DNA of 60,127 nt, filler included, from Basidiobolus ranarum (GCA_040143965.1; 6 parts of 6 records of this genome joined end to end with filler, not necessarily neighbours in it); one strand, 5' to 3'; shown: positions 1 to 50,136, numbered from the whole stretch's first letter. Notes: a model not told the origin generated them from the sequence alone. A program made the numbers and translations.

Positions 1-632
1 CGATAGGTTGTTGTCTCTTTGATAGCGCAGTTAATCCTGATGGTCACATCATTTGAGAATGGAACACAGCGGATCTTGATAGGAATAATATCCCCTAATC
101 CATACACTTTCTTGTGAGTAAAGACCTCGATATTCATGAAATTAGGAATGATTTCTGACAGTATAATCGGATCGTCTTCCTCGGGACAAAACCTTTTGAC
201 TAACACTTCTTTTTTCGTGGCAAGCTTCGTCAGAAAGGGAGGTCGTTCAGCAATGGCTGTAAGTGAATAGTTGCAGCGAACCACTTGCGTGGAAATCGTT
301 TCCATCAAATCTCCACCAAGTGCGAATTCGAAGGGAAATTTATGCTTACCAGCTGGTAAAGTATGGAAACCTGAGCTAGGCTCCAATAGAACAAGTGTTA
401 CATCAATCAATTTGCTCTTGAATCGACACTTCTTATTCAGTAGGGCTGCGCTATAAATCCAATGTACATTACTCTCCCCTCCAAAGTTTAATGTTAATGA
501 TTTTATCTTAGTGTTCCTCTTGAGGTGAACGGTCACTACCCCTTTCAACGCCTTACCAGCAGAGGTTGATGGGCAGCCATAGAGGGCGAAATATGGATTA
601 TTGAGGTGGATCTCGATTGACGAATTGGGCAT
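1..632 (-). CDS. Alpha-arrestin (arrestin N-domain protein), 3' end runs off the window
   Basis: Manual translation from the ATG at 632: MPNSSIEIHLNNPYFALYGCPSTSAGKALKGVVTVHLKRNTKIKSLTLNFGGESNVHW...FHTLPAGKHKFPFEFALGGDLMETI...YSLTAIAERP...IKETTTYR. The frame stays open to position 1, has typical arrestin_N motifs and resembles the 5683-6756 paralog. Confidence 0.88.
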   Translation of the reverse strand, partial: MPNSSIEIHLNNPYFALYGCPSTSAGKALKGVVTVHLKRNTKIKSLTLNFGGESNVHWIYSAALLNKKCRFKSKLIDVTLVLLEPSSGFHTLPAGKHKFPFEFALGGDLMETISTQVVRCNYSLTAIAERPPFLTKLATKKEVLVKRFCPEEDDPIILSEIIPNFMNIEVFTHKKVYGLGDIIPIKIRCVPFSNDVTIRINCAIKETTTY

Positions 633-5682: not shown

Positions 5683-6756
5683 TTACGTGCATAGTGCCAT
5701 TTCCTTCGACATGTAGGCTGGCGGTGGAGTGGCGCAAAGGTATTCCGCATTCAAATTAGAATAACTCGGTGGACTGCGCGATAATTCACATTGGATGGGG
5801 CTCTGTAATAGTATAGGTATTTCCACCATCGCTGACCATTTTCTTTTATCGGAATCAACAAATCTAGATTTTATCATTAATTTATGAGTGATAGTGATGA
5901 AGTTTGTTTCACAATCACACCCAGATATTGTTGGTATCTTCACTTTGATTTTCTCTCCCACACATAGCTCAATGTGATGCAGCAACTCCGAGAACTGTCG
6001 TATACTGTTGGCGAGTTGGGTACTCTCGGACGTTGCAATCATGGTTGTGGGGTGTCGATACGTGGTAACTTCCATTAGGCGTAAACTGATTTTGTCAAGC
6101 TTTAGGGCCGAGGATTTAAACACATATTTCGCAGTAGCTGAGAGGGTATTGCCAATGGTAACTATTCCTTGTGGAATGCTGATGTGATAATAGATAAACT
6201 TACCCCATATCCCAGACGAATAGTTAGACACCTCGGGAATTTCAGTAGGTAGATAAACACGCTCAACTCGGAAACTCTGGTGTCTTTTAATATTGGTGAA
6301 AGGAAACGGGCGAACCACTATTACTGATACCTGGTACAATATTCTTCCGTATGGCACCTCCACGGTCTCGGGAAGGTCTCCTTTGAGAGGTAGTTCGAAA
6401 TCAAAACGGTATTGTCGCTGGCCTTCAAAGCAGTGATAACCAACACTTGGGCCGAGTAATAATAGCTTGTTTTGAGTTAGAACTTTGTATGCTCCGTATA
6501 ACTCTGTACAATGTAATAAGTTAGTTTGCGAAGTGGTAAGAACCCTTATTAGGGGCGACCAACCTTGTGAGTTTTCTAAGCTAAGGGTTCCTTCAAGCTT
6601 CAAGCAGATGTAGCGAATTTTAATGGACTTTGAGGGAGTAAACAGTACAGTGCCCGATACAACTGAGCCTACAGAATCCTCAGGGCTTCCATGCATCACT
6701 ACTACGTCATTGCTTAGACGTACCTGGAGAATGTCTTCGTGAGTCATGCGACTCAT
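5683..6756 (-). CDS. Alpha-arrestin / ART-type ubiquitin-ligase adaptor with C-terminal PY motifs; probable 60-nt intron at 6504-6563
   Basis: Motifs VVSGTVLF..IKIRYICLKLEG, YRFDFELPLKGDLPETVEVPYGRILY and FITITHKL; C-terminal PPSY and PPAY (PPxY) motifs. Confidence 0.92.
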   Translation of the reverse strand: MSRMTHEDILQVRLSNDVVVMHGSPEDSVGSVVSGTVLFTPSKSIKIRYICLKLEGTLSLENSQGWSPLIRVLTTSQTNLLHCTELYGAYKVLTQNKLLLLGPSVGYHCFEGQRQYRFDFELPLKGDLPETVEVPYGRILYQVSVIVVRPFPFTNIKRHQSFRVERVYLPTEIPEVSNYSSGIWGKFIYYHISIPQGIVTIGNTLSATAKYVFKSSALKLDKISLRLMEVTTYRHPTTMIATSESTQLANSIRQFSELLHHIELCVGEKIKVKIPTISGCDCETNFITITHKLMIKSRFVDSDKRKWSAMVEIPILLQSPIQCELSRSPPSYSNLNAEYLCATPPPAYMSKEMALCT

Positions 6757-9700
6757 TACTTTAAATATAAAGAATTCTAGAGAATAACTACGAAAATTGA
6801 GTGGATTCTAGAGGATGGATTTCTTTTATAGTAGTATCTCCGTACTCCCCGATGAAACATCAAGCTGCTTTTTAAATTAACTGAGAATTTGGGGGAGGGG
6901 GATAAAGTGCTTAGTACTGCAAATTTTGATTTTGCCGTAGAAATGAGTAAATCTATACTAAAAATAATGCATTCGTCATACGGAGGCATCAACTGTCACA
7001 TGAACTGTGAATCCCGAATCTGGGATACAGTGGTTGAAAATGGCTGAATGCCTTTGTCTTTACAAACCAGCTTTTGACAGTATAAGCCAAGGTTTGATGG
7101 GAAAAATACATCATGCAAGAACCGGTGTTGATTTCGGTTTTTTTGTATGGCTGAGAGTGATTTTTGCAAAGCTAGATCCCTAATGCATGATCCTAATGCG
7201 CGGTGGATATATCGATGGGAAAATAGCCATGTACAGCTCTGGGGTTAAGCTCATAATCTCAGAACCTAGAACACGATATATTGTCATTTTATCGATCTAA
7301 CAACGCTAGAGGCATCTTGCTGCAGATATTGCACTCCAAGTGAAAACAATGAAACGATATTGAATTCATTTAGTTCATGTACAGTGGAATACAGAACCTT
7401 TCTACCCACGAGCACTAAAGTCACTAGTTTCCATTGGTGCAGGTATTAAATCTATACTAATCTGGACTTTCAATAGAGTTTGATGAATCTCTAAATTGCA
7501 CACTTGCTCCTGGTATAAGAAGCTTCCGAGTCTGATTTGAGTGATAACCGATAAGAAAGACCCATGAGGATATAACTAAACTACGCTTCAGGCTAAATCT
7601 TCCATGAACACTAGAAACCTAATACTGGATTCTGGCCAACGATTGTTCGTTGCCAGTACGTGTGAAACACCATCATTAACATCTCCATGCTTGCCAGGGC
7701 TGAGAACAGTATCAATTAACTGGTTTTAATCTCAAATTCATTCAATTTAAAATATAATCTAGGTAAGATTGCGTTTCGTACAATCGTTACCGGAAATCGC
7801 AAGAAATGAGGAGAATCAAATATCACCTGTGCGTTACACTAAAATTGCTAAACCTTATACAGACAGTCGACTGATATCCGATAGATACATCACGTGATGT
7901 GTACTCCTAAACTCAATAATAGTCTTGGATTTAATGCTACCTCAACCTTAGGCATTCAGCTACTCAATTACCATCGTTGACGTTTCGTTTTTGTCTTACT
8001 TACTTACCTGTATTTACGTAAGTAATCTAATGAAAATTGAAAGAACACTGGATCTCCTGACACCACACGAGTTTGTTCATATATTGTTTGATAATATCTT
8101 ATCCGTATAAAAGAAACCCGATTTTGCTAAAGATTAATTAGAGTTAGACCCTGACTGTTATATTGCACTTTAACATTCCCTTAATGGTGAGCTAATGTTC
8201 TGATGCCCCTTCGGTCTGAAGTATAAGCAGCAAGTAGATTGCCCTTTTTTGATCTATATTATTTTGGTGCTATATCTTTATGCTTCCATTCGCTAGGACT
8301 GTTGTACATATTGACTATACTTTACATACCTAATGCTATTCCCCAGGCGTGGGCACCTCTGCTTATCTGCTGATGTGAGCATGATTTTACAGGAGTCAGC
8401 TAGACTGGTCGCTAGAGCAAGTATAGGAGTTGAGCAAATAGCAACGAAATACTTAATTTGGTGCAGTGTCCAGCGCTGCTTTCCAATAAAGATACTTTAT
8501 TTGTAGATGGTGATAGAATAGGCACGATACAATGATAGTATTGAGTAAAAGCGAGGCAGACGCTTGATTGCACATTAATGAAATATCCAGGGAGAATCTG
8601 TTCTACCACGGAGTAACTTTCACATTCCTTGCATAATTTCGGAAAATTTTAGAGGTGTCATCCTATAAAATAACTAGGGATTGTTTTCAATTATTATTTA
8701 CAAATATTCTGTTAGTAACAGAAAAGATAGAATTCCTGCATGATGCATTATACCGTCGAAGTCAAGGTGGTTCGAAGGCGCTATAAAAGGGAATAAAGTG
8801 TTCAACAAGGCTCTCTGTAATTATTGGATACAGAGCTGAATCATTGACCTAACTTCGGCCATATTCTGCCAGTTGTCATAGCCCTGGTTACCAAATAACT
8901 CGGTATCACATGAAACAGTAATATTATCTAGGGATGTTCTTGGCCCCTGGTTATAGTACTCATTGACAAGCTCAGCAAAGACCGCTATGGTGAGAAAAAT
9001 CAGCCGTCTATTTACCCAATAAATCAACTCTGACATCGCTTTCTCTCCAATGAAGTCACACATTAGAAATGAGCCTGATTCTGTGAAAGCTATACAAGTC
9101 ACAAAACAGTTTGTGCTGAGATTTATTCTTAATTACTGACTGATTCTTAGCATTTCGTCTACGTCGAACAAGGGATATCACTTGCCTAACCAATGACGTA
9201 TCGGCACTCTACAAACCTTGGTATTAATACTGCATTTTAACCAAGTACTACTAGAACACTATTCGTTCATCTAAAATTAAGTTAGATTACAGTCGAGTCT
9301 TAAAGATGTCATTATATTATGAACGCTAAATCCTTCAAACCTTAAACAATCATAGAAATGATTACATGGCTTCCTGATGGGAGTACTAGCACAATCCTGC
9401 GTGAGAAGAGACATACTTGAGAATCAAAGCTTGAAAAACCCCATGAAAAGGTTGGTAAGATGGGTTTTTGAGATTTAGACATATGTTATATCTGCTTGGA
9501 AGACATGAGTCTTAAGAGTAGTCACTGGTTCTAGTCATTTTAGGCATTTCGAGAGCTGCTTATTACCAAAATGAAGCACAAGAATGCATATTCAAGTATC
9601 GGAATTCAGTATCAAGCACTCTCTGAATCTAATTATATGAGTCAAAAATTCTCCATTGAAACGACTGCACCAAACACTTCGGAGGTGCTCATTTGAAGGG

Positions 9701-18305: not shown

Positions 18306-20016
18306 TTAGTGTCGGATATTTGGCACGCACAAAATCGTGAATATAATGGCAACGATGTTGACCACCACGAAGATACAAAATGTATAGGAGTCCAATTTGG
18401 CATTCAGTACTGGAGTGATCAACCCAACTGAGAAGGTGCATCTACGATTGGTAAAAGAAACGAAATTTAGAATTCAAGTCATCATCAAACTACGGGGAAT
18501 GTTACAAGTAGATCCGTGTAATAACAAATAATGATCTAATCATGTCGTAATCAAACAGATACTTACATCCAACCGACATTGTTGGCCATCGAGACCACCG
18601 CACTTACTGCAGATATTGGCATCATCTCTGGGATCATTACAACCGTAATCGGGCCTAAGCCGATCGCAAAAGAGGCTACAAATATAATTGCTGAACATGC
18701 ACAAGTATGAATCCGAGTTTGTGGAGGTAAAATAGAAAAATGAGATTTAGTAATTCGTCAATGATAACACCAAAATGATGAAGTTTCTGGTGTATAGGAT
18801 ACACTCAAAAACTCCGTCTAATGGTTGGATGAGATATTTGTGTAAAGTAATACTAACCTCCAGCAACAACTGCAGAATCAATAGAGTATAAGGAAGAAAA
18901 TACTAGGATAATTGACGAAAGGACCATCCCGACTTCACTTATTAAAAGTAGAGTTTTTCTACCAGCACGCTCAATAACCACCGCGGATATGAAAGTCATG
19001 ATCATGTTCATAGCAGCAATACCAACTGTCACGAATTCCGCTTTTCTTGGCCCAAAGACTCGCTCAAAAATCGCTGTGGAATAATATACGATACCAATGA
19101 TACCTGAAAGTGGTTGAAAAGCAAACAATGAGATTCCAACCAGAGCGGCACTTCTCAATTTGTGGTCGCGTAGAATTTGAAAAATATTTAGAGGTTTCAT
19201 GGTCTCAATCACAGTTACTCCTGCTTCTAGGCTAGGTCCAATTTTACTCATGCGGATCGATGTCATAGGGCCTACAGAGCTTCTGGGACTTACTGGACTC
19301 TTGAAGCTTACAGGACTTCTTGGGCTGGCGGGACATTTGAAACTAACTGGACTTCTAGGACTGACTGGGGATTTCAGGCTTATTGGGCTAGTAGGGCACT
19401 TCAGGCTTACTGGACTAGTAGGACTTTTGAGACTCATTGGGGCCTTGGGGATCACTGGACTAGCGCATGAGTTTCGAGAACATAAGGAAACGCGTGAGGC
19501 TGTTGGAACCTTTTGTGAATCGATCATCTCCTGGAATTCAAACTCAATATGATATCCTCGGCGTAATCTCTCCAATGAAGCTCGTGCTTTAGTCATATCT
19601 CCTTTAAGGATAAGAAACCGGGGAGTTTCTATGCAAAATGGCAGCAGGCAAAGCTGTAGTAAGGCTGGTCCAATTGTACCACCCATTAACCATCTCCATC
19701 CTGGAATGCCAATAAATGGAATACAAAGACCCTGAGAAACAAAAATCCCTAACATTTGAGATAGTTCCAAACCAATTCCCAATGATCCTCTGATTTTTTC
19801 AGTAGAAATCTCTGCCAAATACGCTGGTATAGCCACACCAACTACTCCACTACCAATCCCTACTAGCACTCTGCCTAGAGTAAAGATCGATATTGAAGTA
19901 CTCATTGCCAACATTAAGCCACCAATTAAGAAAAGAAAATTATTCCAGAACAGTGTTTTCTTACGACCGAATCGGGCTGTGAGACTACCAGCTAGCGTAC
20001 TTCCAATTAAACCTCC
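18306..20016 (-). CDS. MFS sugar porter (GLUT-like hexose transporter), 5' end truncated by the contig edge, at least 2 introns
   Basis: Motifs RFGRKK, GRVLVGIG, AYLAEIS..IRG, IETPRFL, FQPLSGI, ERAGRKTLLL and FAIGLGPI..PE. The last exon ends ...ILCVPNIRH*. Confidence 0.92.
19264..19450 (-). repeat. Coding tandem repeat (9/27/36-nt units) encoding (L/F)K(S/C)P(T/V/A)SP(V/I/R)S in the transporter's central loop
   Basis: Translates as SLKSPTSPVSLKCPTSPISLKSPVSPRSPVSFKCPASPRSPVSFKSPVSPRS; recurrent ACTGGACT/GGACTTCT units on the + strand. Confidence 0.9.
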
Positions 20017-31568: not shown

Positions 31569-33427
<1,859 letters not shown>

Positions 33428-38160: not shown

Positions 38161-38685
38161 CTACTTCATTGGTTATTTAATACTTTTGCTACAAGAGTAC
38201 TTACCTTTAAAATCGTCGGGAACATAAGTATCTCTACCTTGAACATGGAAATAGGCCCAAATTTCGTTAATAGAACCGGATTTGCATTTGAAATAAGGTG
38301 TAATTCCCAGAGCACTTTTGATAGCATCGGCCATAGAGGCTTGGGTATACGTACCACCAGGCACAACGCCAGTACTAGCTAGAGCACCGTATATATCATA
38401 CTTTGAGTGGAGGCTTAGAACACTTCGAAAGTAGTCAGTCATATCTTCATATTTCTGGTAATCAGGGCCGTAACATGTAGGACTTAGTAGAGACGCAAGT
38501 TCCATGCTTGCCCCATTCATGTGCCCTGTATTGGTGGTACTATTTGTTAAATAAAACGAACCAATTACTGATCCAGTATAATGAAATGGTGGGGGACTAA
38601 CCAGAAAGCACCATTGTCACCTTTGAATGATGGCCAATATGTATTCATTTGTTCGTAAAGACTGCTGTTAGAATTTTGAGAATTT
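38161..38685 (-). pseudogene. Ribonuclease T2 pseudogene (5' part missing, frameshift, premature stop)
   Basis: Reads LYEQMNTYWPSFKGDNGAFW|AHEWGKHGTCVST (CAS II), then a 2-nt shift to LSPTCYG...C..GSINEIW. The end IK*PMK* suggests Tyr->TAA. No CAS I (HGLWP) is found upstream. Confidence 0.82.
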
Positions 38686-40205: not shown

Positions 40206-41363
40206 ATTCTAAATAACCTTTTTACCTATTGCATAGCCATAAACAACAACTTGGGTTAGGTGAGTTGTGACCCAAAATAGTCAGTTGATTGACAAACCCC
40301 TTACCCAACAGAGCTACTTTAAGGAGGTTCCTTTAGACAGATTAATTGATGGATACCGAACACTTACCCAGGCTGACCTTTCAAGGAATAGAAATCTGAA
40401 TCATCCTAACACACCCGCTGGGTTTTTAGTGGAGAATAAGTTCGCCCTTATCGCTGTTCAGGTAATTATTCATTTGTTCGAGAAGTCAAACTGGAGATCT
40501 AGTATCGCAATCAGAAATGGGGCCATTCTATATCGATGTCTGTCAATGATAAATATTGCACTCGGCATGGTAGAAGTGATAGAACTCCACTGTCCTCGCA
40601 ATACCATAGGTATCCGGAGAAACCAGGAATCTGGGAGACATGCCTACATCTAGGAGTGCAATTATCAGGCTAAATGATTACTAGAAATATCGAGGAATTT
40701 CTAAAGAATCGCTTGTCTCAGCCTATTAGATGAGAAAATATTTTTTGCTGCGTGCATCGAATTACCGACAGGACCAAGTATGGCTACTGATTAGGCAGCG
40801 TAGATTATCGCCAATGAACTAAAAAGGGTAAAGAATCAACCATCGTCTATTATATACTCATCTTCCTGTAAATGATAGATTTTCCAAAAAAAAGGCCGTC
40901 AAATTTGCGATAATATAATCTTCATCGTAATTCTGGCATGTTGCCGGTTACCAATCCCAATTCCTTGATTCACCGATATAGTAGCCTGTGCGCAGATATT
41001 CTACCAATAGCTTTGAAGTTAGTTCGCGAGAGTTCTGTAGCTCACTTATTATCCAGTCTTTCAAATTGATTTTCTCTCTTTTTAATGACCTGTGGTTGTA
41101 ATATAGGCCATACATGGTCTACCAGATTCAATTCATAAAAAATTACTAACGGTCCATTAAGTATTTAACTCTTATTCTGGATATTGGAATAATTGATATT
41201 TGTATTAGCTTTTCATTTGCGAAATTTTACTTTTCGCCAGTAACTTCACTCCTTCCAACTTAGTCGTAACTTTCCTTCTCTCTTTTTTTATTAGTGGAGC
41301 ACCTTCTTTTTGAGAACGAGTATATCATATCAGTCTTGTTTGCATCGAAGTATAGTTATTCAG

Positions 41364-41840
41364 ATGAATACTCAAACTGCCATGAAGAGATCCAATAATT
41401 TTGGTTCTCAAGCCAAGAAATCTGTCAATTTAAATATATCGCGTCCTCCCTCTCATATCACCGCACTTCTTTCAGAGCAGCAGGAGGGTAAAGTCTATTA
41501 TATTCCTCGCGGGTATCGCCCCTTATTGGTTAGTGAAGAGAAGCTTGCGGAATTCAAAAAGCAGGGCATTAACTCGACACCCATAACTGCATACTTACCT
41601 TCTGAACGTCGCAATCAAGTGCCGAATGTGCCTGCACCAATCAAGAGTTATAAGCAAGCACCTGTGACAGTTCCATCTGCAGACCTGGAACTGGAAGGCA
41701 TGCAGCAGGCATATTCGAACTTTTATACTGCCAAGATGGAGGAATTGGCTAAATGTAACATTTATGGCGAAGATGCTTCACGTATTATTATGAGCATCTG
41801 GCAGAAGATTGACAATGAAGAAAGAGCGTTATTCCGATAA
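41364..41840 (+). CDS. Divergent HMG-box-like protein, possibly truncated by a premature TAA
   Basis: C-terminal AYSNFYTAKMEELAKCNIYGEDASRIIMSIWQKIDNEERALFR fits the HMG pattern (AY..F / ..S+.+...W..+..EE+..F/Y). It shares an N-terminal motif with the 44145-44957 HMG protein. The frame continues *IAVLP.. to 41900. Confidence 0.6.
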   Translation: MNTQTAMKRSNNFGSQAKKSVNLNISRPPSHITALLSEQQEGKVYYIPRGYRPLLVSEEKLAEFKKQGINSTPITAYLPSERRNQVPNVPAPIKSYKQAPVTVPSADLELEGMQQAYSNFYTAKMEELAKCNIYGEDASRIIMSIWQKIDNEERALFR

Positions 41841-41945
41841 ATAGCCGTGCTTCCCATGAACGCAGCTTCAAGTTTGCAGCAAGTGCTTCATTCCAACTAG
41901 AAGTTACCACGTCGCTTATATGCTTTTTATATCACTTGCGGTTTA

Positions 41946-43700
41946 GTTATACCAACACATCTTTGTATGTTCTCGCCAGGAGACTTTCGAGCTTTTCCAT
42001 TCGTGTAATACGATTTAATTCATCTTTTGTGCATTGTTTTTCATATATTTGGATCTCCACCTCTACTTACTCATTTGTTATTTTCTCACTCGATATGCTC
42101 GTACCAACATTGGTCTGTAAAGTACTCAGCCCATACCAAATCAACTATCAATTGCTACTTCTAATTCAGACCACGTAGTTCATAGAAACTCGGTCAAATG
42201 CACCATATCAGCTCCTGGAAGCATCTTCTCACATCCTGATTAATTCCACCATTTTGATACACCTAAATTCTCAACACAGGACGAGTTCTCATTTATCCCC
42301 AAAAAGCCCTATTTGTCTGGAACAATTTCATTTGCGTCACACTCTTTGTTCGTGATGATTTCGTTTTGTTTGGTCTTGTCGTTTCCTCTCTATCTGACAT
42401 TTGTGTATTCTCCACCACAACGCATCGCAAAAGAGGCCCCCATCCGGATCTTTCGTCAGAATACTGGTTGATTATTTTCAATAAATCACACGACATTAGC
42501 AATTTCCAATTTAGATCCCAAGCAGGTTTTGTCTGGATGGTCTTAATTCATCTGACTCTATTCATTAGAGACACTCACGTGATCTTTCTCACCAATGCGG
42601 TTTGGGGGAGTCATTCCAGATTGATTCAGGGTTCGTTTCATACGATTGTTCCGATTTCACTGAGCTTCAACACGCAAGGTCGTTGCCTTGCAGCCATACC
42701 AGAAGAAGAAGGGTATTTCCAACACCAACCCAATGACGTTCCACCTCTATATGAAAGTGACGCCAACATTTCCATTGAAAGCTTTCCAGATTACGGAATG
42801 ATATGGATTTCTGCATTGTGGATGGGTCAATTCACCGGAACAAACCTGCAGCATCTCTTCGCTTGCAAGTATTCATGTTCCTCTTGCCAGGCACTTGAAA
42901 CCCCCTGTCTTTCCCACGCTGATCGTTTCGCGGACTCCATCTCGAACGCAGGATCAAAAGGAGGTGGTGGAATGCCTTCCAAGAGGCGACGTCATTGCCG
43001 CATTGGCTTGGTATTCAGTCATTGAATCATTGAAAACAACCTGCTGTGCAAGTCATCTGACCTGGCAGTCTAATGATTTGAAGTTCCGAACTCATGCTGA
43101 AGCTACACAATCACTAGGGTGGATGAATGGACCTTGTCATCTTCAGTTTGAAAAAGGATGGACTAATTTGGATAAATTTGGGTGCTCTTGATTTCTACTG
43201 GAGCAGGAGGATTTCTTTGAATGTTACCTGCTTTGGTATACTTCGGCAATTTGGATTCTTTTATACTCGGTTGGGTTTGTGCAGCATCGGGATGGGTTTA
43301 GGTACGGTTTGAAGGATGCAACAGACGTTGAAATAATCATGAGTTGTCTCACTGCCATCCAAACCCACTGTTCTTTTGGTGGAATCCAAGAGTTGAATTG
43401 TAGATAATTATGTAATCTCCCATCGGAGATGTTACCTTGCATGTGGGAACCCAGTGGATTGCATGTTCCTAATGGGTTATGTAGCTAATATTGGCTATAT
43501 TGTTCGAGTACAGCTCCGAGATCAATGCATTCTCTTTCAGATTGAGGTTCGGAATAGAAAAGGTACGTTGGCACTTCATGGGCATGGCCATGGCCATGGT
43601 CCGGAGTATTCCACGGATGAAATCTGCGGGTGACATAGAGGGAGTGTATGCCGGATATGTAGTAAGTGAAAGTTAGCTACCATGACTATTCAACTCATGT
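41946..43700 (-). pseudogene. Heavily decayed coding-like region between the two HMG genes, possibly a GATA-type zinc-finger relic
   Basis: Protein-like stretches are broken by stops and frameshifts, e.g. STSILTKDPDGGLFCDA/CGG near 42410-42490 and EVEIQIYEKQCTKDELNRITRMEKLESLLARTYKDVLV* at the end. Confidence 0.3.
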
Positions 43701-44144
43701 ACCAAATATGAATCCATCCCTCCATCGGGTTGATCAGATCTCTTGATGATCGTATAGTAGTGGTGAATGATGATCTTTTGAATTTAGGAAGAACTGGTTG
43801 CTCATGACCATTTTGAATGATACCCCTTTTGGTTATATTCTGTCTCGATAATCTGATGCAACATAGAAGAAATCTGCTTGGTAGTTTTACTTCAGATAAT
43901 CATGATGATGGGGTGTAACGACATCGATTAAGTTGGGCATATCGTTCGAGGCAGTGAGGTGAGGGAGAGTCTATACAGGCATAGATGAATACATTAAATA
44001 GAACTGGTGCCTATACACCTTACTAGTTCTAGGGTGGCTGGGAAGAATTAAAATTCCTGGAATAGATATTTCCAAATGGCTGTGCGATTCAAACACGTGA
44101 AGATTTGTATATGGGTGAATTAGCTGATGGATACAAGGCAAGTG

Positions 44145-44957
44145 TTAACCATTTTCAGTAGTGAGTTTTGGGATGTAAAGGATGTGAAAGGAGTCAGGAT
44201 CGACTTTGGGGAGGCTGGGGGCAATATTGAGTGGCTGCTCAATGTATTCATTCGATGGTACAGGCTGTTGCACATCAGGTTTGATACGTTTACGACGACC
44301 TTGTTGTGGGGTGAATTTGTAATCGGGATATTTCGTTTGATGTTCCTGTTGTAGGCTGCGAGCTTTCTGGCGATATACCTCTTTCACACAATCGGGTAAT
44401 TCTTTCCATTCTTTGCCCAATGCCTTGGATACATCGTTGTTGGATAGATGTGGACTCTGTTGAAAGATCCTTCCATGGTTTTCTCGCCGGAATAGAATGA
44501 ATGCGTTGGTGGGACGTGGTGTCTTGATGTCTTTTTTCACTGTCTTTGGAGGATTAGTGGGTGCAGTTGAAGCTATAGCTGTTGGTGGATATATCTTTAA
44601 AAGATTTGGTGGATGAGGATAGTTGTGAGGTATCCAAACGGGATGATTTAATGGAATAGATTCTGAAGGTAGATTGTATTCAACTACAGAAGCCAAGGAG
44701 TCGAGCATCAATACTGGAACATATCCTGAGGGAACAAAAACGAACTCTCCTTCTTTGGGTATGGAGGAAGCGGGTTCATTTGACTGTGCCTTGCTAGGAT
44801 CAAATGCGGGGAAGAAACTCGGTGAATGCTCCAGAATGAAGTCTAAAGATATTGAATCTTGCAATGTTCGAGAGACAGATGGTTGTTGGTTTGAAGGGTA
44901 GCTTACAGTATATTCTGGCACACCTGCGAAACTACTGATGGAGGGAATGCCACTCAT
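44145..44957 (-). CDS. MATA/SOX-type HMG-box transcription factor (SexM/SexP/MAT1-2-1-like)
   Basis: Intronless ORF containing IKTPRPTNAFILFRRENHGRIFQQSPHLSNNDVSKALGKEWKELPDCVKEVYRQKARSLQQEHQTKYPDYKFTP followed by the basic RRKR tail. Confidence 0.95.
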   Translation of the reverse strand: MSGIPSISSFAGVPEYTVSYPSNQQPSVSRTLQDSISLDFILEHSPSFFPAFDPSKAQSNEPASSIPKEGEFVFVPSGYVPVLMLDSLASVVEYNLPSESIPLNHPVWIPHNYPHPPNLLKIYPPTAIASTAPTNPPKTVKKDIKTPRPTNAFILFRRENHGRIFQQSPHLSNNDVSKALGKEWKELPDCVKEVYRQKARSLQQEHQTKYPDYKFTPQQGRRKRIKPDVQQPVPSNEYIEQPLNIAPSLPKVDPDSFHILYIPKLTTENG

Positions 44958-45369
44958 TACGACTAGTTAACTTACAGTTCAAGTGGTTGATTGCCCAAAA
45001 GAAAAGCTAGGGTCAGGGTCACAGATTAAAGTTAAAGTCAGATGGAAAATGAATGCAACAAGCTGGTTGTATTATGGTTTGTCGAATGCTGATCAGTGGC
45101 CCAGTGAAGGGTTTTATAGGACCCAATAGATCCATAATTAGTATAATTTATCTTTTGGATTCCTCATTGTTCACCAATGGTACAGTGTCTTTAGTGTGTC
45201 AATAGTCAATAGTGGTTTGAATGATATCTGCATTTAGAAATCCCACAATAGGTTCGTCCAATCATCGTTATTTCAAGATTGCATAAGAGTAGTTGTTATT
45301 TTTCGAGTCAAGAAATCAATCTGCATGGATAAACCTCGGATCGCTACTTAGAATAAGAATTACTTAGAG

Positions 45370-46155
45370 AAAAGAATCCTGGTTCCAGATCTCGTCTATA
45401 CATAATCAGTTGCACACCGCGCCGTGTGAGCGATACTGTTTGCCCAACTTGAGCGGATATGGGTGGATCGTGCCTTCATCCGAATTAATGTTTTTTTGAT
45501 GGATTCATATGCATCCAGTACAATGACTAGCATAATTGGTTTAGTCTCATTATCGAGTACTGCATTGGTCGTAAAGAGTCCGATGGGCTCTCGCTTTACT
45601 TCTAGGCACCGTGACATCTGCTGTGTCCTCTTCAACAAGAGATGGTAAGTGTAAGTGCTGTAGAGCTTCTGAGTCAAACTTGACGGATTTATCGGAATTC
45701 TACGAATGGCTGCCTTTACTCGAGGCCCAACCTCATGATTTTAAGAACAATCATGGACAGTCACCACCTCTAACGTAGGAATTTCCAGTAATTGGATTTT
45801 TAACAAGGTGTGTTTGCAACATTCATTTTCTCGGGTTTCAGAGTGACTGTCAAAGTTGACTTCGAGCATATGTTTGACTATGCAATGCAAAGTCAGTTAC
45901 TGATTGAAATACATATGCTATAACCTGAATCACGTGATATGGTAACCTGGACATGTGCCAAGCCCAAGTGCATGTCAATAGCAGTAAGCGAGCGATGAGC
46001 AGATTATAGCAAGGGAGTGAACGATACCAACACTTGTTGATGCTGTCGATTAGAATATTGAGAGTATGGTACAGCCTAAGAGCTAAGAGATTGATCACGT
46101 TTCGCAACAGATCCAGTGCAACGATGGATCTCAAAAAGAACCTACGCAATCTCAT
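45370..46155 (-). pseudogene. Possible decayed gene between the HMG gene and SLA2
   Basis: 101-aa ORF MRLRRFFLRS..., then a plausible intron ending CTGAC...CATAG and a long stop-interrupted frame (KHMLEVNFDSHSE...DEIWNQDSFL*). No family recognised. Confidence 0.25.
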
Positions 46156-46393
46156 CTATGATGTCGATTAATTATTGAAGCCTCTGGTCAGCTTCAATGA
46201 CGGGACTTGTATGCTATAACTAGAGCTGTGACCGTTATAATTACGCAGTCAGGTGACGATGACTTCACTCAAATAACTCATACGAACGCCATTGGACCAT
46301 GTGAGATAAGCTACTCAAACGATTTTTTCATAGCCTTGGCGAGGAATATTAATCAATACTCTGACTTTCGTCAACGCACTAACACAACACAAG

Positions 46394-49300
46394 ATGGCTA
46401 CTTCACGTCATTCAGATAGAGACAAAGTCGAGCATGAGCTCGCCATGAACATTAAAAAGGCGGTGAACTCTGACGAGACAGCACCTAAGCAAAAGCATGT
46501 AAGAAGTAAGTCTCAATGCACCAAGTCTCCTTTTACTTTTGTCCGTTCTACTGCCTTTCTATATTGATTGACATATATTTTTGTAAAGGTTGTATTGTAT
46601 ATACTTGGGACGCAAAGAGCTCCCAGTCGTTCTGGATGGGGTTAAAAGTGCAACCATTGTTGGCTGACGAGGTTCAGTGTTTCAAAGCACTTATCACTGC
46701 CCACAAAGTTATTAGTGGTGGTCATCCCGCAGTAAGTATTACTATTAAGTTAAATAGAACATATACCAGGAAGCATAAAATAAACCAGAATATTTGTTAC
46801 TATAGACCTTACGGGAGGCTATGAATGAAATTGGATTCCTAAAAGTATTAAGCCAATCTTTTGCACAAGACAGCTTCAAAGGTTATGGAGTTCTCATTCG
46901 AGCATATGTCGACTTCTTGATTGCTAAACTTGAATATCATCGGATGCATCCTGAATTCACTGGAAACTTTGACTATGATGATTATGTAAGTGTAAAGGGC
47001 GTTGACGATCCTAACGAAGGGTAAGTATATTCGTTTGTAATATCTTGACCTTGTTAATACTCATCATAACATTTAATGTTGCTGACTTTGCTACAAAACA
47101 GTTACGAAACCATTGCCGATTTAATGAATCTACAGGATCGCATCGACGCTTTCCAAAAACTTATCTTTCGAAGTTTCCGTCCAGCTTCGGATAACGAGTG
47201 CAGGATTGCTGCATTGGTACCTTTAGTGGAGGAAAGCTTTGGTATATACGAATTTTCGACAAGAATGTTAATGGCTATGCACAGACGTAAGAAACTTGCT
47301 TGTTTAAACTCCTGATAGAATGTAAATTTGCAACCATGCTTACGCTTGAATTATAGGTGTTGAATCACATGAGCCTCTCGAACCCCTTCGTTCTCGTTTC
47401 AATGCTCAGCATTATTCCTTGAGGAAGTTCTATTTTGAGTGCTCCACCATAAAATATCTTACTAGCTTGATTACTATTCCTAAATTACCACAGGTAAATG
47501 ATTGATTTATCTTGTTTACTGTACATTTTGTGATATAGTAACATTATTTCCCTAGGACCCTCCCAATTTCCTTGCTCAAAGTCCTACTTCTGCTCCTCGT
47601 TTGCCTGCTCGCCAGGCCACGCCACCACCAGCACCGCCTCCAGAGCCCGAGGTTGATCCTAGAGAGGAGCAACAAAGACAACTTGCGTTACAGAGGGAAT
47701 ATGACGAACAGCAGCGTTTGCTAAGAGAAAGACAAATGCAGGAGCAAGCTCGAAACCGATACAACGAACTGGAGCAAGAAATTATGAACTACCGAAATCA
47801 ACAAGAGCGTGATATGATGCTTATGTCACAATATGATCAAGTATGGCCATCTTAAATATAATTTTATTTGATATTTTGGGATATCATGGAAATACCTAAT
47901 GATGAATATCTAGCGTGTCAAAGCTTTAGAAAACGAACTGGCCAGAATTGGCCTTTCGCAACAACGGAATGATGGTGATTTGGACGCGTTAATCAAGCAA
48001 CTTCAAGGTATACCTTTTGTCATATATACCCAAACGCTGATATAATCATCTCATTAATCTTTGGCAATGGATAAGCTGAAATCGCCGAATGGAAAGCCAA
48101 ATACGAAGCTCTAGCTAAGTTTTACGCAAAGCTTCGCCAGGAACATCTTGAGCTTCTTGGTAAACTTAAGCAAGTAACTCTAAGAGCGAACACTGCCACA
48201 GAAACCGCTCATAAGCTTGATCGTTTGGAATCTGAATTACGAGTAAGAAGCCACTAAAATTTGTGTAGATCTACGATCTGACTAAGAGAAATGGGTATAT
48301 TACTCATTTTGCTTTCATAGGCAAAAAACACTGAGCTGATGGATATGATTCGTGAGCGTGATCGGGCTAAGGATGAGTTAGAACGGCTGCGTGGAGTGAG
48401 TAGATAGAAATTCATCCTATAATTATTTGAACACGAACTAAATGTCTTTTCTCAGTCCGATTCTGGAGAGCTAACTCGAATGAAGCGTGAATTGGAGGAG
48501 TCAAAGGCCAAATTAGAGAAACTCATGGAGGTAAGATTAATCATACTAATGATACTACATCATCGTATTGATATCCGTATTAGTCAACTGGAGGAGAGCT
48601 CGGCGAGATGCGCAGGAAATTCGATGAAGAGCGAAATGAATTGGAAGCAGTTCTTCGTGTTAGTATTGTACTGACCTTATCAAATTAAAGTTTGACGATT
48701 CCTAATATTTTACCGACTTTAGAATCTGCGCGAAACCGAGGAAGGCATCGCCAGAGATTGGGAAATAGCAAAGAATGAATTAGATAAGATGACATCGGTA
48801 AGCCTCAAAGAGCATGCTCATTTTCCATTTGCGGTCGAGTAATCCCCTAATGTTAGGCTAAAGAAGAAGAGATTGCTATTCTTCAAGCTGGTATGGATCA
48901 AAGTCTAATGGCTCTGGCCGAGCTGCAAGAGGCAAGACACCTATTATATATTATGTTAATTAGGATCATGCTTACCTAGAGCCTGTTTCTGTAGACATCT
49001 TCTGCTACTGAATCAGAGCTTCAAAAATTTGTTGACAAGCTTCATAGTGAACAATCTAGCAAGCTCCACAATATTTTAGGTTAGTATCACGTACTAATCG
49101 ACTTGATTTCGCTCGAATTCTAACTAGATCATTATACTCTATCCAGATGCTGTATTTCGTAGTTGTATCAAGAAGCTCAATGACGCTACCTTTGAGCTCA
49201 CATCACCTGCTAGCCAAGGAAATCAATCTGCTACTGCTCAATATGTTCTATCTATGGTAGAACGCGCATATATAACGTCTAGTGAATTCGCCATTAGCTA

Positions 49301-50136
49301 CTTGCAATACCTCTCTGATTCTGAAGATCAAATCTCTGTCATCAACACTGCTACAGCCTTCGCCGAAGCCGTTTCCCAGCTTCTTAATAACGTAAAGGGT
49401 GTTACCAGACTTGCCGATGAGGATGATCAAGTCGAAGAGATAATTCGCTCGGGGCGTTACTCTGCTGAAGCTGCAGAGAAGTTCTTTACGGACATGTTAT
49501 CTTCAAATATATTAACTTCTATTGAATCTGAGCGTCCAGATGTCATTGCCAAAGGTAATCATAACATACAGGTCGCTTTGAACAGACTTATTCAGTTGAT
49601 CGAATCCCTCCTGCCTAAGGACTCTCTTACCGCCGGGCAAGAGGATTTGGCATCCTTGGTTGAACGTGAAATGTTACAAGCTGCTCGCACTGTTGAAGAG
49701 GCCACTGAAAAGCTTTCTGATATTCGAAATAAGCCCAAAATGCCAGAAATATCAACTGAAGACCATCAAATTCATACCGCTGTACTTGATACTGCTAAAG
49801 CCATGACTCAAGCAATCGTGAATTTGGTGCGTTGCGCCCATGCTTCTCAACAAGAAATTGTTGATCAAGGGCGCGGATCTTTGTCCAAAAATGCTTACTA
49901 CAAAAAAAATAGCCGTTGGACTGAGGGACTTATATCAGCAGCTCAAGGCGTTTCGTCAGCAACCAACACTCTTGTTGAGGTTGCTAATGGAGTAATACAC
50001 GTTTCGCATAATCTATAGCAATTGATTAACGCCTCCAACGATGTCGCCACCGCTACTGCTGAGTTAGTGGCAGCAGCCCGTGTCAAAGCTAACATGTATT
50101 CCAAAACGCAAGAGAAGTTGGAATTGGCTTCACGTG
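46394..50136 (+). CDS. SLA2: Sla2/End4/HIP1R endocytic adaptor (ANTH, coiled coil, I/LWEQ), 14 introns, in-frame TAG at 50016-50018, 3' end truncated by the contig edge
   Basis: Motifs ETAPKQKHVRSCIVYTWD, FKALITAHKVISGGHP, DDPNEGYETI, ECRIAALVPLVEES, LITIPKLP, WKAKYEALAKFY, YYKKNSRWTEGLISAA and *QLINASNDVATATAELVAAARVKA. Confidence 0.96.

What the first reader, a model, noticed from the sequence alone, without database searches (positions are those of the whole stretch)
41364..50136. Candidate mating-type (sex/MAT) locus: HMG-box genes beside SLA2 in an early-diverging fungus
Seen: on one contig, an intronless MATA-type HMG gene starts ~1.4 kb from SLA2 and is transcribed away from it, and a second HMG-like gene lies ~2.3 kb further on. 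Known: SLA2 flanks MAT in many ascomycetes and lies near the HD locus in some basidiomycetes, whereas the Mucorales sexM/sexP locus is flanked by a triose-phosphate transporter and an RNA helicase. Inference: in a fungus with zygomycete-like traits (e.g. the WxNNGNT WRKY gene on another contig), HMG-SLA2 linkage could mark an undescribed sex locus and date the SLA2-MAT synteny to before Dikarya.
Basis: partly seen in the sequence, partly recalled or inferred. Interest (0 to 1): 0.92.

Follow-up and report, generated by a model that had tools for sequence, protein, structure and literature searches.

The report
Mating-type-like HMG gene beside SLA2
In the frog-gut fungus Basidiobolus ranarum, a gene that closely resembles the fission-yeast mating-type regulator Mc sits next to SLA2, the gene that flanks mating-type loci in ascomycetes, so it is a good but unproven candidate for the unknown sex locus of this fungal group.

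Summary
Window 40206-50136 is one whole 9,931-bp contig of Basidiobolus ranarum, which is not an ascomycete. An intronless 270-aa HMG-box gene (44145-44957, minus) starts 1,436 bp from SLA2 (46394 onward, plus) and is transcribed away from it. A 158-aa gene (41364-41840, plus) lies 2,304 bp beyond it.

The HMG box is of the SRY/SOX/MATA type. The protein also carries a short motif about 70 residues before the box. That motif is shared with Mc of Schizosaccharomyces japonicus and Neolecta, with Pneumocystis matMc (shown in print to complement S. pombe) and with Glomeromycota MATA-HMG proteins.

The small gene has the same motif. Its C-terminal helices resemble a truncated HMG box only weakly, and Pfam finds none.

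The SLA2-HMG-small-gene trio occurs twice in this assembly. SLA2 and the small gene share a contig twice in B. meristosporus.

Against a simple "ascomycete-type MAT" reading:
- The HMG gene lies 5' of SLA2, whereas MAT genes lay 3' of SLA2 in 17 of 17 Dikarya control loci that had any.
- There is no evidence of idiomorphs.
- The duplicates look like genome-wide homeologs.
- No other early-diverging lineage, no expression and no strain variation could be tested.

Verdict: a real and unreported locus, and a plausible homothallic MAT-like locus. Pre-Dikarya synteny is unproven.

The parts
41364..41840 (+). Gene 2: a 158-aa Basidiobolus-specific protein (stop included). It is an annotated protein in the public record.
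   Evidence: Translation. Homologs were found only in Basidiobolus: 72% to K7432_001174, and 63% and 61% to two B. meristosporus proteins. Exact sequence is in NCBI/UniRef.
41484..41531 (+). Mc-type N-terminal motif of gene 2 (residues 41-56).
   Evidence: BLASTP against the HMG protein gives E 0.002; hhalign gives E 4.7e-4. The core is invariant in 4 of 4 homologs.
41679..41837 (+). C-terminal three-helix region of gene 2 (residues 106-158), weakly like a truncated HMG box.
   Evidence: AlphaFold2 predicts helices 106-130, 135-148 and 151-157, with block-mean pLDDT 75-91 over residues 111-158. hhalign against the box gives E 0.0019. No Pfam hit.
41841..44144 (.). 2.3-kb spacer between the two convergent genes. 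No recognisable gene.
   Evidence: The 252-codon open frame 42267-43025 has no Pfam hit. Small ORFs are listed. In the paralogous locus the HMG gene and gene 2 carry consecutive locus tags.
44145..44957 (-). Intronless Mc-type MATA_HMG transcription-factor gene, 270 aa (stop included).
44307..44519 (-). HMG box (residues 147-217).
   Evidence: Pfam HMG_box E 2.7e-22. The closest solved chains are SRY/SOX at about 1e-13 to 1e-14, against about 1e-6 to 1e-8 for HMGB chains. AlphaFold2 block-mean pLDDT is 91-97 over residues 151-210.
44706..44753 (-). N-terminal Mc-type motif (residues 69-84).
   Evidence: It aligns with Mc of S. japonicus and Neolecta and with Glomeromycota MATA-HMG proteins, and the same motif pattern is present in the two Pneumocystis proteins. 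The motif pattern occurs in 23 of 159 proteins examined.
44958..46393 (.). 1,436-bp divergent intergenic region between the HMG gene and SLA2, presumably holding both promoters.
   Evidence: Sequence. Only short ORFs with no known similarity.
46394..50136 (+). SLA2 (ANTH plus I/LWEQ), with several introns, cut off by the contig end. It carries an in-frame TAG at 50016-50018.
   Evidence: tblastn of P0007 and P0008. Pfam I_LWEQ and Talin_IBS2B. Stop codon shown.

Best explanation
Anatomy. This is a real three-gene block of Basidiobolus ranarum that is conserved in the genus and duplicated. An intronless transcription-factor gene of the matMc / MATA_HMG type lies head-to-head with SLA2 and tail-to-tail with a small paralog-like gene. 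That small gene keeps the Mc-type N-terminal motif but has only a truncated, degenerate HMG-like end.

Most likely mechanism (inferred, not shown). The HMG protein binds and bends specific DNA sites through its SRY/SOX/MATA-class box and switches on sexual-development (zygospore) genes, as Mc does in fission yeasts. The N-terminal motif, about 70 residues upstream of the box, would be a docking site for a cofactor. Gene 2 lacks the basic DNA-contact strand and most of helix 3, so it would compete for or share that cofactor and modulate the HMG protein.

Because B. ranarum selfs, the locus would be a non-idiomorphic, homothallic MAT-like locus. The two copies in the assembly would be homeologs or divergent haplotypes rather than opposite mating types.

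How sure: the anatomy and the Mc-type classification are about 0.85-0.9 secure; the sexual function is about 0.45.
For: Gene anatomy and coordinates.

Box class: the best solved relatives are SRY and SOX chains (E about 1e-13 to 1e-14; an SRY-HMGB1 fusion scores 1.2e-20), ahead of HMGB chains at about 1e-6 to 1e-8.

Relatives beyond the box: in the search of 1.84 billion representatives, 7,646 proteins matched at E <= 1e-3. Hits aligned from query residue about 60-68 through the box include:
- a representative clustered with S. japonicus Mc (E 6.6e-16, query 60-223);
- Neolecta irregularis 'Mc' (7.1e-17);
- Pneumocystis jirovecii T551_02162 (1.4e-13);
- Glomeromycota proteins, one named MATA-HMG.

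Motif: it aligns across these groups. It occurs in 23 of 159 proteins examined. In the 21 where the box-start pattern also matched, it lies 58-99 residues before the box.

Phylogeny: a tree constrained to hold the 22 motif-bearing rows plus the B. meristosporus partial protein (23 rows) as one clade is 7.59 log-likelihood units better than the free quick tree, p-AU 0.577.

Linkage: the second trio has SLA2 KAK9728227.1, HMG KAK9728228.1 (K7432_001173) and gene 2 K7432_001174, all on a 46,079-bp contig. B. meristosporus gene-2 homologs sit on contigs of 47,045 and 179,213 bp, the same lengths as the contigs of its two SLA2 copies.

Biology: B. ranarum is described as at least diploid, with divergent haplotypes, and selfing (PMC3281927, passages).
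Against: - No functional, expression or strain-comparison data. The tools that could give them were not available for this window.
- The HMG-box-only tree does not by itself join Basidiobolus to Mc. The motif label needs 7 changes on the free tree, and the nearest outside rows are unnamed.
- The Glomeromycota members of the motif group are labelled MATA-HMG, but no call shows any role in mating for them.
- B. ranarum has two further paralogs (K7432_001261 and K7432_007445, 50-54% identical) whose neighbours are unknown.
- The only B. meristosporus HMG relative recovered is a 98-aa partial on a 153,078-bp contig. That length matches none of its SLA2 contigs.
- The HMG gene lies 5' of SLA2, the opposite side from MAT genes in the Dikarya controls.
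- The SLA2 copy on this contig has an in-frame TAG where both relatives have Glu, so this may be the decaying copy of the pair.
- Evidence that gene 2 is HMG-derived is weak.
Confidence: 0.45

Rival explanations
1. It is an ordinary lineage-specific HMG-box transcription factor, for example a developmental or stress regulator. It happens to lie next to SLA2 in Basidiobolus. The adjacency is a chance neighbourhood fixed before the duplications within the genus and has nothing to do with mating type.
For: - HMG-box proteins are very numerous: 7,646 representatives match at E <= 1e-3.
- The box-only tree gives Basidiobolus its own clade (SH-aLRT 98) with no supported sister.
- The gene lies on the 5' side of SLA2, unlike the MAT genes in 17 of 17 Dikarya control loci that had any.
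- None of the other usual MAT flank families was seen among the open frames of the contig that were scanned against Pfam.
- The finding was picked post hoc from a very large scan.
Against: - The protein shares an extra-box motif, at a conserved distance from the box, with functionally proven matMc proteins.
- My own rough estimate, not a computation: with two ancestral loci of this subfamily among roughly ten thousand genes, immediate adjacency to SLA2 in particular has a prior well below 1%.
- The block is kept intact in both diverged copies.
Confidence: 0.33
2. The two SLA2-HMG-gene2 loci in the assembly are the two 'sexes' (a sexM/sexP-like or idiomorph-like pair) kept together in one selfing genome. 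The window carries one mating-type version and the 46-kb contig carries the other.
For: The two copies differ much more in the HMG gene (68.3% identity) and gene 2 (72.8%) than in SLA2 (87.1%). The two B. ranarum SLA2 copies are about as far from each other as from B. meristosporus (86.3-88.7%), so the split is old.
Against: - Both copies have the same architecture, the same motif and the same box subfamily. This is unlike the sexM/sexP pair of Phycomyces, which falls in different HMG classes (PMC2999568, passage).
- SLA2 itself is 13% diverged, as expected if whole chromosomes are homeologous.
- Divergent haplotypes of unrelated genes (actin, EF-1alpha) are reported for this species (PMC3281927).
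- In B. meristosporus the two copies are much closer: SLA2 98.1%, gene 2 88.1%.
- Faster change in small regulatory proteins than in SLA2 is expected anyway.
Confidence: 0.1
3. It is an artefact: contaminating ascomycete DNA or a chimeric contig places an ascomycete MAT1-2-1-like gene beside SLA2.
For: The arrangement recalls ascomycete MAT loci. The contig is short (9,931 bp).
Against: - The SLA2 here is 86-87% identical to the Basidiobolus copies and only 38-46% identical to the SLA2 proteins of other genera listed, ascomycetes included.
- The HMG gene and gene 2 have their closest relatives only in Basidiobolus.
- The same order recurs on an independent 46-kb contig.
- G+C content is 37-42% across the contig, like the other pieces of the window.
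Confidence: 0.02

Closest known systems
matMc (mat1-Mc) of Taphrinomycotina: Schizosaccharomyces Mc, Neolecta 'Mc', Pneumocystis matMc
   Same: A single MATA-class HMG box near the C-terminus of a small intronless protein (170-300 aa). A conserved motif lies 58-99 residues upstream of the box. Alignments run from the motif through the box at E 1e-13 to 1e-16. Pneumocystis matMc also sits in a non-idiomorphic, homothallic locus (PMC5821091).
   Different: Only 34-41% identity. No matMi- or matPi-like partner was recognised on the contig. The neighbours here are SLA2 and a truncated HMG-like gene. Function is untested.
Pezizomycotina MAT locus (MAT1-2-1 HMG or MAT1-1-1 alpha-box beside SLA2 and a DNA lyase gene)
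   Same: A MATA-class HMG gene within a few kb of SLA2. A second protein possibly derived from HMG lies nearby, as alpha1 is HMG-derived according to PMC2999568. A passage in PMC3116813 describes the ascomycete cluster.
   Different: In the control set, MAT genes lay 2-8 kb downstream of the 3' end of SLA2: 16 of 30 loci with at least 5 kb of downstream flank had one, and 0 of 40 loci with at least 3 kb of upstream flank had one upstream. Here the HMG gene is upstream and divergent. Gene 2 is not an alpha box (no Pfam MATalpha_HMGbox hit; hhalign E 0.15). No idiomorphs were seen. The lyase flank cannot be checked because the contig ends.
Mucorales sex locus (sexM/sexP between a triose-phosphate transporter and an RNA helicase gene)
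   Same: An HMG-box gene as candidate sex determinant in a zygospore-forming fungus.
   Different: The flanks are SLA2 and gene 2, not a transporter and a helicase. No pair of strongly divergent alleles is known. I could not fetch SexM or SexP sequences, so there is no direct comparison.
Glomeromycota MATA-HMG family
   Same: The same N-terminal motif plus box. These are the best-scoring full-span relatives outside Basidiobolus.
   Different: The Glomeromycota proteins are longer (300-555 aa) with long C-terminal tails. Their genomic neighbours were not examined here. From recall only: they belong to a large expansion with no shown mating role.

Membership tests
HMG-box superfamily (Pfam PF00505), for the 270-aa protein | Full-length match to the HMG_box profile above the curated cut-off | tested here: met
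   79.4 bits against a cut-off of 25.4, profile positions 1-69 of 69. AlphaFold2 gives three helices with block-mean pLDDT 91-97 over residues 151-210.
Sequence-specific MATA/SOX class of HMG boxes | Closer to SRY/SOX/MATA boxes than to HMGB/UBF boxes | tested here: met
   SRY and SOX chains score E 1e-13 to 1e-14; HMGB chains score 1e-6 to 1e-8. The best named relatives are Mc and MATA-HMG proteins. CDD's MATA_HMG model itself was not available.
matMc-type mating-type HMG proteins | Conserved motif upstream of the box, shared with Mc of Schizosaccharomyces, Neolecta and Pneumocystis | tested here: met
   Alignment A3. Pattern count 23 of 159, at 58-99 residues before the box. I derived this motif here; to my knowledge it is not a published family definition.
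matMc-type mating-type HMG proteins | Forms one clade with Mc proteins in an HMG-box phylogeny | tested here: inconclusive
   On the free quick tree the motif label needs 7 changes. The constrained one-clade tree is 7.59 lnL better, p-AU 0.577, so it is not rejected. Only 78 columns were used.
matMc-type mating-type HMG proteins | Required for mating or meiosis, or complements an S. pombe mat1-Mc null strain | not testable with these tools
   This is a bench assay. The precedent is PMC5821091.
Fungal mating-type (MAT/sex) locus | Alternative alleles or idiomorphs between compatible strains, or mating-type-specific presence | not testable with these tools
   No genome is held for the window. 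Only one assembly per species was reachable, and only through protein records.
Ascomycete-type MAT synteny | SLA2 is an immediate neighbour of the MAT transcription-factor gene | tested here: met
   1,436 bp between the start codons. The adjacency is repeated on the 46,079-bp contig.
Ascomycete-type MAT synteny | MAT genes lie beyond the 3' end of SLA2 | tested here: not met
   The HMG gene lies 5' of SLA2 and is divergent from it. In the controls, MAT genes were downstream in 17 of the 17 loci that had any, and upstream in 0 of 40.
Ascomycete-type MAT synteny | A DNA lyase (APN2) or other canonical gene on the far flank | not testable with these tools
   The contig ends inside SLA2 on one side and 1.1 kb beyond gene 2 on the other.
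Mucoralean sex locus | HMG gene flanked by a triose-phosphate transporter gene and an RNA helicase gene | tested here: not met
   The flanking genes on this contig are SLA2 and gene 2. None of the 6 open frames of the contig that were scanned matched a transporter or helicase family in Pfam. Genes beyond the 9.9-kb contig are unknown.
HMG-box superfamily, for gene 2 (158 aa) | Match to an HMG-box profile | tested here: not met
   No Pfam HMG_box or MATalpha_HMGbox hit for 0 of 4 members, even at E up to 10. My own box HMM gives E 0.01-0.09 in a 4-sequence database, covering helix 2 and the start of helix 3 only.
HMG-box superfamily, for gene 2 (158 aa) | HMG-like three-helix fold | tested here: inconclusive
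   Confident helices at 106-157. Foldseek: 34 of 44 listed rows are HMG boxes, including the first 21, but every row has E >= 0.79. VIA-align: about 13 of 50 rows are HMG boxes at Z 4.0-5.1, and the top row (Z 5.2) is not one.

The most novel reading that the evidence does not exclude
The adjacency of an Mc-type MATA_HMG gene and SLA2 is inherited from the common ancestor of Basidiobolus and the Dikarya. On this reading the ancestral mating-type locus of terrestrial fungi was an HMG gene with a second, HMG-derived partner gene beside SLA2. Gene 2 would be the counterpart of the second HMG-derived MAT protein (the role alpha1 plays in ascomycetes). The Mucoralean transporter/helicase-flanked locus would be a later relocation.
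Probability: 0.15. Interest if true: 0.9.

Novelty: new variant of a known kind. Interest (0 to 1): 0.62.

Why it matters
A 2023 review states that mating genetics in Zoopagomycota is still not well understood (PMC10386755, passage). My six literature searches found no description of a sex locus in Basidiobolus, nor of HMG-SLA2 linkage outside the Dikarya.

An Mc-type HMG gene beside SLA2 gives a concrete locus to test in a lineage that branches deep among terrestrial fungi. Heterothallic Basidiobolus species can be genotyped at it. The gene can be tested in the S. pombe complementation assay already used for Pneumocystis.

If the linkage also holds in other early-diverging lineages, it would bear directly on what the ancestral fungal mating-type locus looked like. 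The upstream motif shared by Mc proteins, Glomeromycota MATA-HMG proteins and these genes is also a useful marker for picking out Mc-type genes among the many fungal HMG genes.

Tried and rejected
- Whole-genome search of the window's own assembly: no genome is held.
- Rfam scan of the window: 0 matches.
- Repeats on the contig: no direct repeats, and one 26-nt imperfect inverted pair inside SLA2. There is no sign of silent cassettes or switching repeats.
- Metagenome scan with an SLA2 alignment, meant to sample early-diverging fungi. By best named SLA2 match, 77 of the 80 loci look like Dikarya. The 3 others (L002, L032, L034) have flanks under 200 bp. The scan therefore served only as a positive control.
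- Gene 2 as an alpha-box protein: no Pfam MATalpha_HMGbox hit. hhalign against alpha1 ORFs from the control loci gave E 0.15. Rejected as unsupported.
- Complex prediction of the HMG protein with gene 2: no verdict (score 0.23 against a mark of 0.34). It says nothing either way.
- Protein atlas: HMG-box clusters appear among the hits for gene 2 at scores 0.78-0.83. A Zoopagomycota HMG cluster scores 0.75 for the N-terminal part of the HMG protein. All are below the level the tool calls more than a lead.
- Earlier scan notes: nothing on this genome or these proteins.
- Small ORFs in the two spacers: nothing recognisable. By eye, none ends with a Cys four residues from the end as a prenylated pheromone would.
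- Supplementary files of the papers were closed. Supplementary tables of the genome papers (PMC7466969, PMC10386755) could hold gene lists that bear on prior description.


Full report
WHAT THE WINDOW IS. The 60,127-base window is six pieces separated by paired 44-base N runs. The piece that holds the finding, 40206-50136, is 9,931 bp. A search with the last SLA2 exon returned a 100%-identical annotated protein, 'sla2 Src-like adaptor 2 [Basidiobolus ranarum]', recorded on a contig of exactly 9,931 bp. The piece is therefore one whole short contig of a public B. ranarum assembly. Basidiobolus is a zygospore-forming early-diverging fungus, not an ascomycete. Everything about other copies and species therefore had to be inferred from protein records.

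THE OBSERVATION. It is correct.
- An uninterrupted 270-codon frame runs on the minus strand from the ATG at 44957 to a stop at 44145-44147. Pfam HMG_box matches residues 149-217 over the full profile at E 2.7e-22.
- SLA2 starts at 46394 on the plus strand. It has several introns and runs to the contig end. It carries I/LWEQ and talin-IBS2B matches in its last exon.
- The two start codons are 1,436 bp apart and the genes diverge.
- Gene 2 (41364-41840, plus strand, 158 aa) lies 2,304 bp from the HMG stop and converges on the HMG gene.
- No direct repeats or cassette-like structures lie on the contig. There are no Rfam matches. The open frames in the two spacers match nothing.

THE HMG PROTEIN. 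Among solved structures its box is closest to SRY and SOX boxes (E about 1e-13 to 1e-14), well ahead of HMGB boxes (about 1e-6 to 1e-8). That places it in the sequence-specific class.

Its close relatives are all from B. ranarum:
- K7432_001173, 68% identical;
- K7432_001261, 51%;
- K7432_007445, 50%, a 190-aa model that ends inside the box.

An exhaustive HMMER search of 1.84 billion representatives gave 7,646 hits at E <= 1e-3. A subset of these aligns not only over the box but from query residue about 60-68 onward. I could name 20 of these representatives. Among the named ones:
- Schizosaccharomyces japonicus Mc, in the cluster of a hit at E 6.6e-16;
- Neolecta irregularis 'Mating-type M-specific polypeptide Mc' (7.1e-17);
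- Pneumocystis jirovecii T551_02162 (1.4e-13) and its P. oryctolagi counterpart;
- several Glomeromycota proteins, one labelled MATA-HMG;
- proteins of Spizellomyces, Rhizophlyctis and Calcarisporiella.

The alignment shows why these hits extend upstream. All share a short motif: a Gly, three or four hydrophobic or aromatic residues, Pro-x-Gly-[Tyr/Phe]-x-Pro-[Val/Ile]-Leu. A pattern for it matched 23 of 159 proteins examined. Where the box-start pattern also matched (21 of the 23), the motif lies 58-99 residues before the box. Pfam has no model for it.

An HMG-box-only tree of 159 rows (78 columns) puts the Basidiobolus proteins in their own clade (SH-aLRT 98). It does not join the motif-bearing proteins; the label needs 7 changes. 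However, the tree constrained to hold the 22 motif-bearing rows plus the B. meristosporus partial protein as one clade is 7.59 log-likelihood units better than the free quick tree, and it is not rejected (p-AU 0.577). I named the group from the motif, which lies outside the tree's columns, before building the tree.

I conclude that this is an Mc-type MATA_HMG protein by architecture. The phylogeny permits that reading but does not prove it.

GENE 2. It has homologs only in Basidiobolus:
- K7432_001174, 72% identical;
- two B. meristosporus proteins, 63% and 61%.

All four end at the same place. It carries the same motif as the HMG protein (BLASTP E 0.002; profile-profile E 4.7e-4). The motif sits at a similar distance from a confidently predicted C-terminal three-helix region, residues 106-157. 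That region lines up with helix 1, helix 2 and the first turns of helix 3 of the box (hhalign E 0.0019, probability 14%).

Fold comparison is suggestive only. Foldseek lists HMG boxes in 34 of 44 rows, including the first 21, but none is better than E 0.79. VIA-align lists about 13 HMG boxes in 50 rows at Z 4.0-5.1, a range the tool itself says may reflect only a common helical arrangement. Pfam finds no HMG or alpha-box match in any of the 4 members. Comparison with alpha1 ORFs taken from control loci gave E 0.15.

The fairest description is a small protein that looks like a truncated, degenerate copy of its neighbour. It keeps the motif, and it lacks the basic strand before helix 1 and most of helix 3.

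LINKAGE AND DUPLICATION.
- The paralogous SLA2 (KAK9728227.1), the paralogous HMG gene (KAK9728228.1, K7432_001173) and the gene-2 paralog (K7432_001174) have consecutive identifiers and share a contig length of 46,079 bp. The trio therefore exists twice in this assembly, in the same order.
- In B. meristosporus the two gene-2 homologs sit on contigs of 47,045 and 179,213 bp. Those are the same lengths as the contigs of its two close SLA2 copies.
- Whether an HMG gene lies between them there is unknown. The only B. meristosporus relative recovered is a 98-aa partial on a 153,078-bp contig. Its box resembles the other paralog pair.
- Pairwise identities. SLA2: window against its B. ranarum paralog 87.1%; against B. 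meristosporus 86.3% and 87.2%; paralog against B. meristosporus 88.7%; the two B. meristosporus copies 98.1%. HMG pair 68.3%. Gene-2 pairs 72.8% in B. ranarum and 88.1% in B. meristosporus.
- The two B. ranarum loci are thus about as old as the split between the species.
- B. ranarum has been reported to be at least diploid, with divergent haplotypes of actin and EF-1alpha, and to self (PMC3281927, passages). The simplest reading is therefore homeologs or divergent haplotypes, not opposite mating types.
- The SLA2 copy in the window has a TAG at 50016-50018 where both relatives have Glu, with conserved sequence continuing after it. This is either a very recent nonsense change in a redundant copy or a sequencing error.

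COMPARISON WITH THE ASCOMYCETE ARRANGEMENT. I scanned JGI metagenome contigs with an SLA2 alignment and obtained 80 loci. By best named SLA2 match, 77 look like Dikarya, mostly Pezizomycotina. The 3 others have flanks under 200 bp. The scan therefore could not sample early-diverging fungi, but it works as a control.
- HMG-box ORFs were found in 11 of 80 loci and alpha-box ORFs in 11 of 80, a union of 17 loci. One alpha-box ORF was confirmed as Pfam MATalpha_HMGbox at E 1.6e-32, and three of the four HMG ORFs submitted as Pfam HMG_box (L030's ORF gave no Pfam hit).
- In all 17 loci the MAT genes lie 2-8 kb beyond the 3' end of SLA2.
- 16 of 30 loci with at least 5 kb of downstream flank have a MAT gene there. 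0 of 40 loci with at least 3 kb of upstream flank have one upstream.
- In Basidiobolus the HMG gene is on the 5' side. The adjacency is the same as in ascomycetes but the geometry is not. If the synteny is ancient it needs at least one local rearrangement. Otherwise it may be an independent neighbourhood.

MECHANISM AND RIVALS.
- Shown: the gene anatomy, the box class, the shared motif, and the repeated linkage in the genus.
- Inferred: the protein acts like Mc, a DNA-bending activator of sexual-development genes; the motif is a cofactor site; gene 2 modulates it; and the locus is a homothallic MAT-like locus. I put this at about 0.45.
- Main rival, about 0.33: an ordinary HMG regulator that merely neighbours SLA2 in this genus.
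- The idea that the two loci are the two 'sexes' gets about 0.1.
- An artefact gets about 0.02.
- A complex prediction for the two proteins gave no verdict and is not used.

NOVELTY. Searches of the paper library found no description of a Basidiobolus sex locus and no HMG-SLA2 linkage outside the Dikarya:
- Basidiobolus + mating + HMG: 3 papers, none about a locus;
- SLA2 + mating-type + Zoopagomycota: 0 papers;
- sexM, sexP, Basidiobolus;
- SLA2 + MATA-HMG: 1 paper, on a yeast;
- SLA2, sex locus, Mucorales, synteny;
- Zoopagomycota, HMG and sex-locus terms.
In the one Mucor paper that mentions SLA2, it does so only for ascomycetes. A 2023 review says mating genetics in Zoopagomycota is not well understood. 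The library lacks most subscription journals, and supplements were closed, so prior mention elsewhere cannot be excluded.

VERDICT. The locus is a credible, previously undescribed candidate for a MAT-like locus in Basidiobolus, built around an Mc-type HMG gene. The wider claim that SLA2-MAT synteny predates the Dikarya remains an open conjecture, at about 0.15. It is cheap to test with genome data that I could not reach.

Noticed in passing
window 50016-50018: There is an in-frame TAG in SLA2 where the B. ranarum paralog and the B. meristosporus ortholog have Glu (a single-base difference from GAG). The downstream frame is still highly conserved to the contig end. The public model ends at this stop, giving 889 aa against about 998-1,000 aa, and so lacks most of the I/LWEQ domain. 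This is either a recent nonsense mutation in a redundant copy or a sequencing error.
   Followed up: partly
window 44163-44186 (residues 258-265 of the HMG protein): A second short conserved motif lies near the C-terminus: Phe-His-Ile-[Leu/Ile]-Tyr-Ile-Pro. It occurs in the three full-length Basidiobolus paralogs and is predicted as a low-confidence beta strand, like the N-terminal motif. The two strands may pair with each other.
   Followed up: no
B. meristosporus proteins P0010 and P0128 (no locus held): Basidiobolus meristosporus has a second, old SLA2 paralog pair, 53-58% identical to the first pair and about 98% identical to each other. No B. ranarum counterpart appeared among the 120 hits listed. 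Together with the two HMG paralog pairs, this fits two rounds of large-scale duplication.
   Followed up: partly
L044 against L047 (also L046, L049), about 15.5-23 kb: Metagenome contigs of one Acarospora-like ascomycete are 97-99% identical through SLA2 and then diverge. L044 carries a split HMG-box (MAT1-2-1-like) ORF. L047 carries an alpha-box ORF plus Tc3/Tc5-type transposase fragments between SLA2 and the alpha-box gene. These look like both idiomorphs of one species caught in environmental data.
   Followed up: partly
protein P0005 (K7432_007445): The fourth B. ranarum HMG paralog is annotated as 190 aa and stops inside helix 2 of the box. It is either a truncated pseudogene or a gene-model error.
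   Followed up: no
window 42267-43025 (+): A 252-codon stop-to-stop open frame (162 aa from its first ATG) lies in the spacer between gene 2 and the HMG gene. It has no Pfam match. It was not tested for conservation because the paralogous DNA could not be fetched.
   Followed up: no
window 3-668, 5686-6807, 18856-20016, 31572-32594, 38176-38616: Open frames on the other pieces of the window match two arrestin-domain proteins, a sugar transporter, an FGGY carbohydrate kinase (glycerol-kinase-like) and an RNase T2. These are ordinary housekeeping content.
   Followed up: partly
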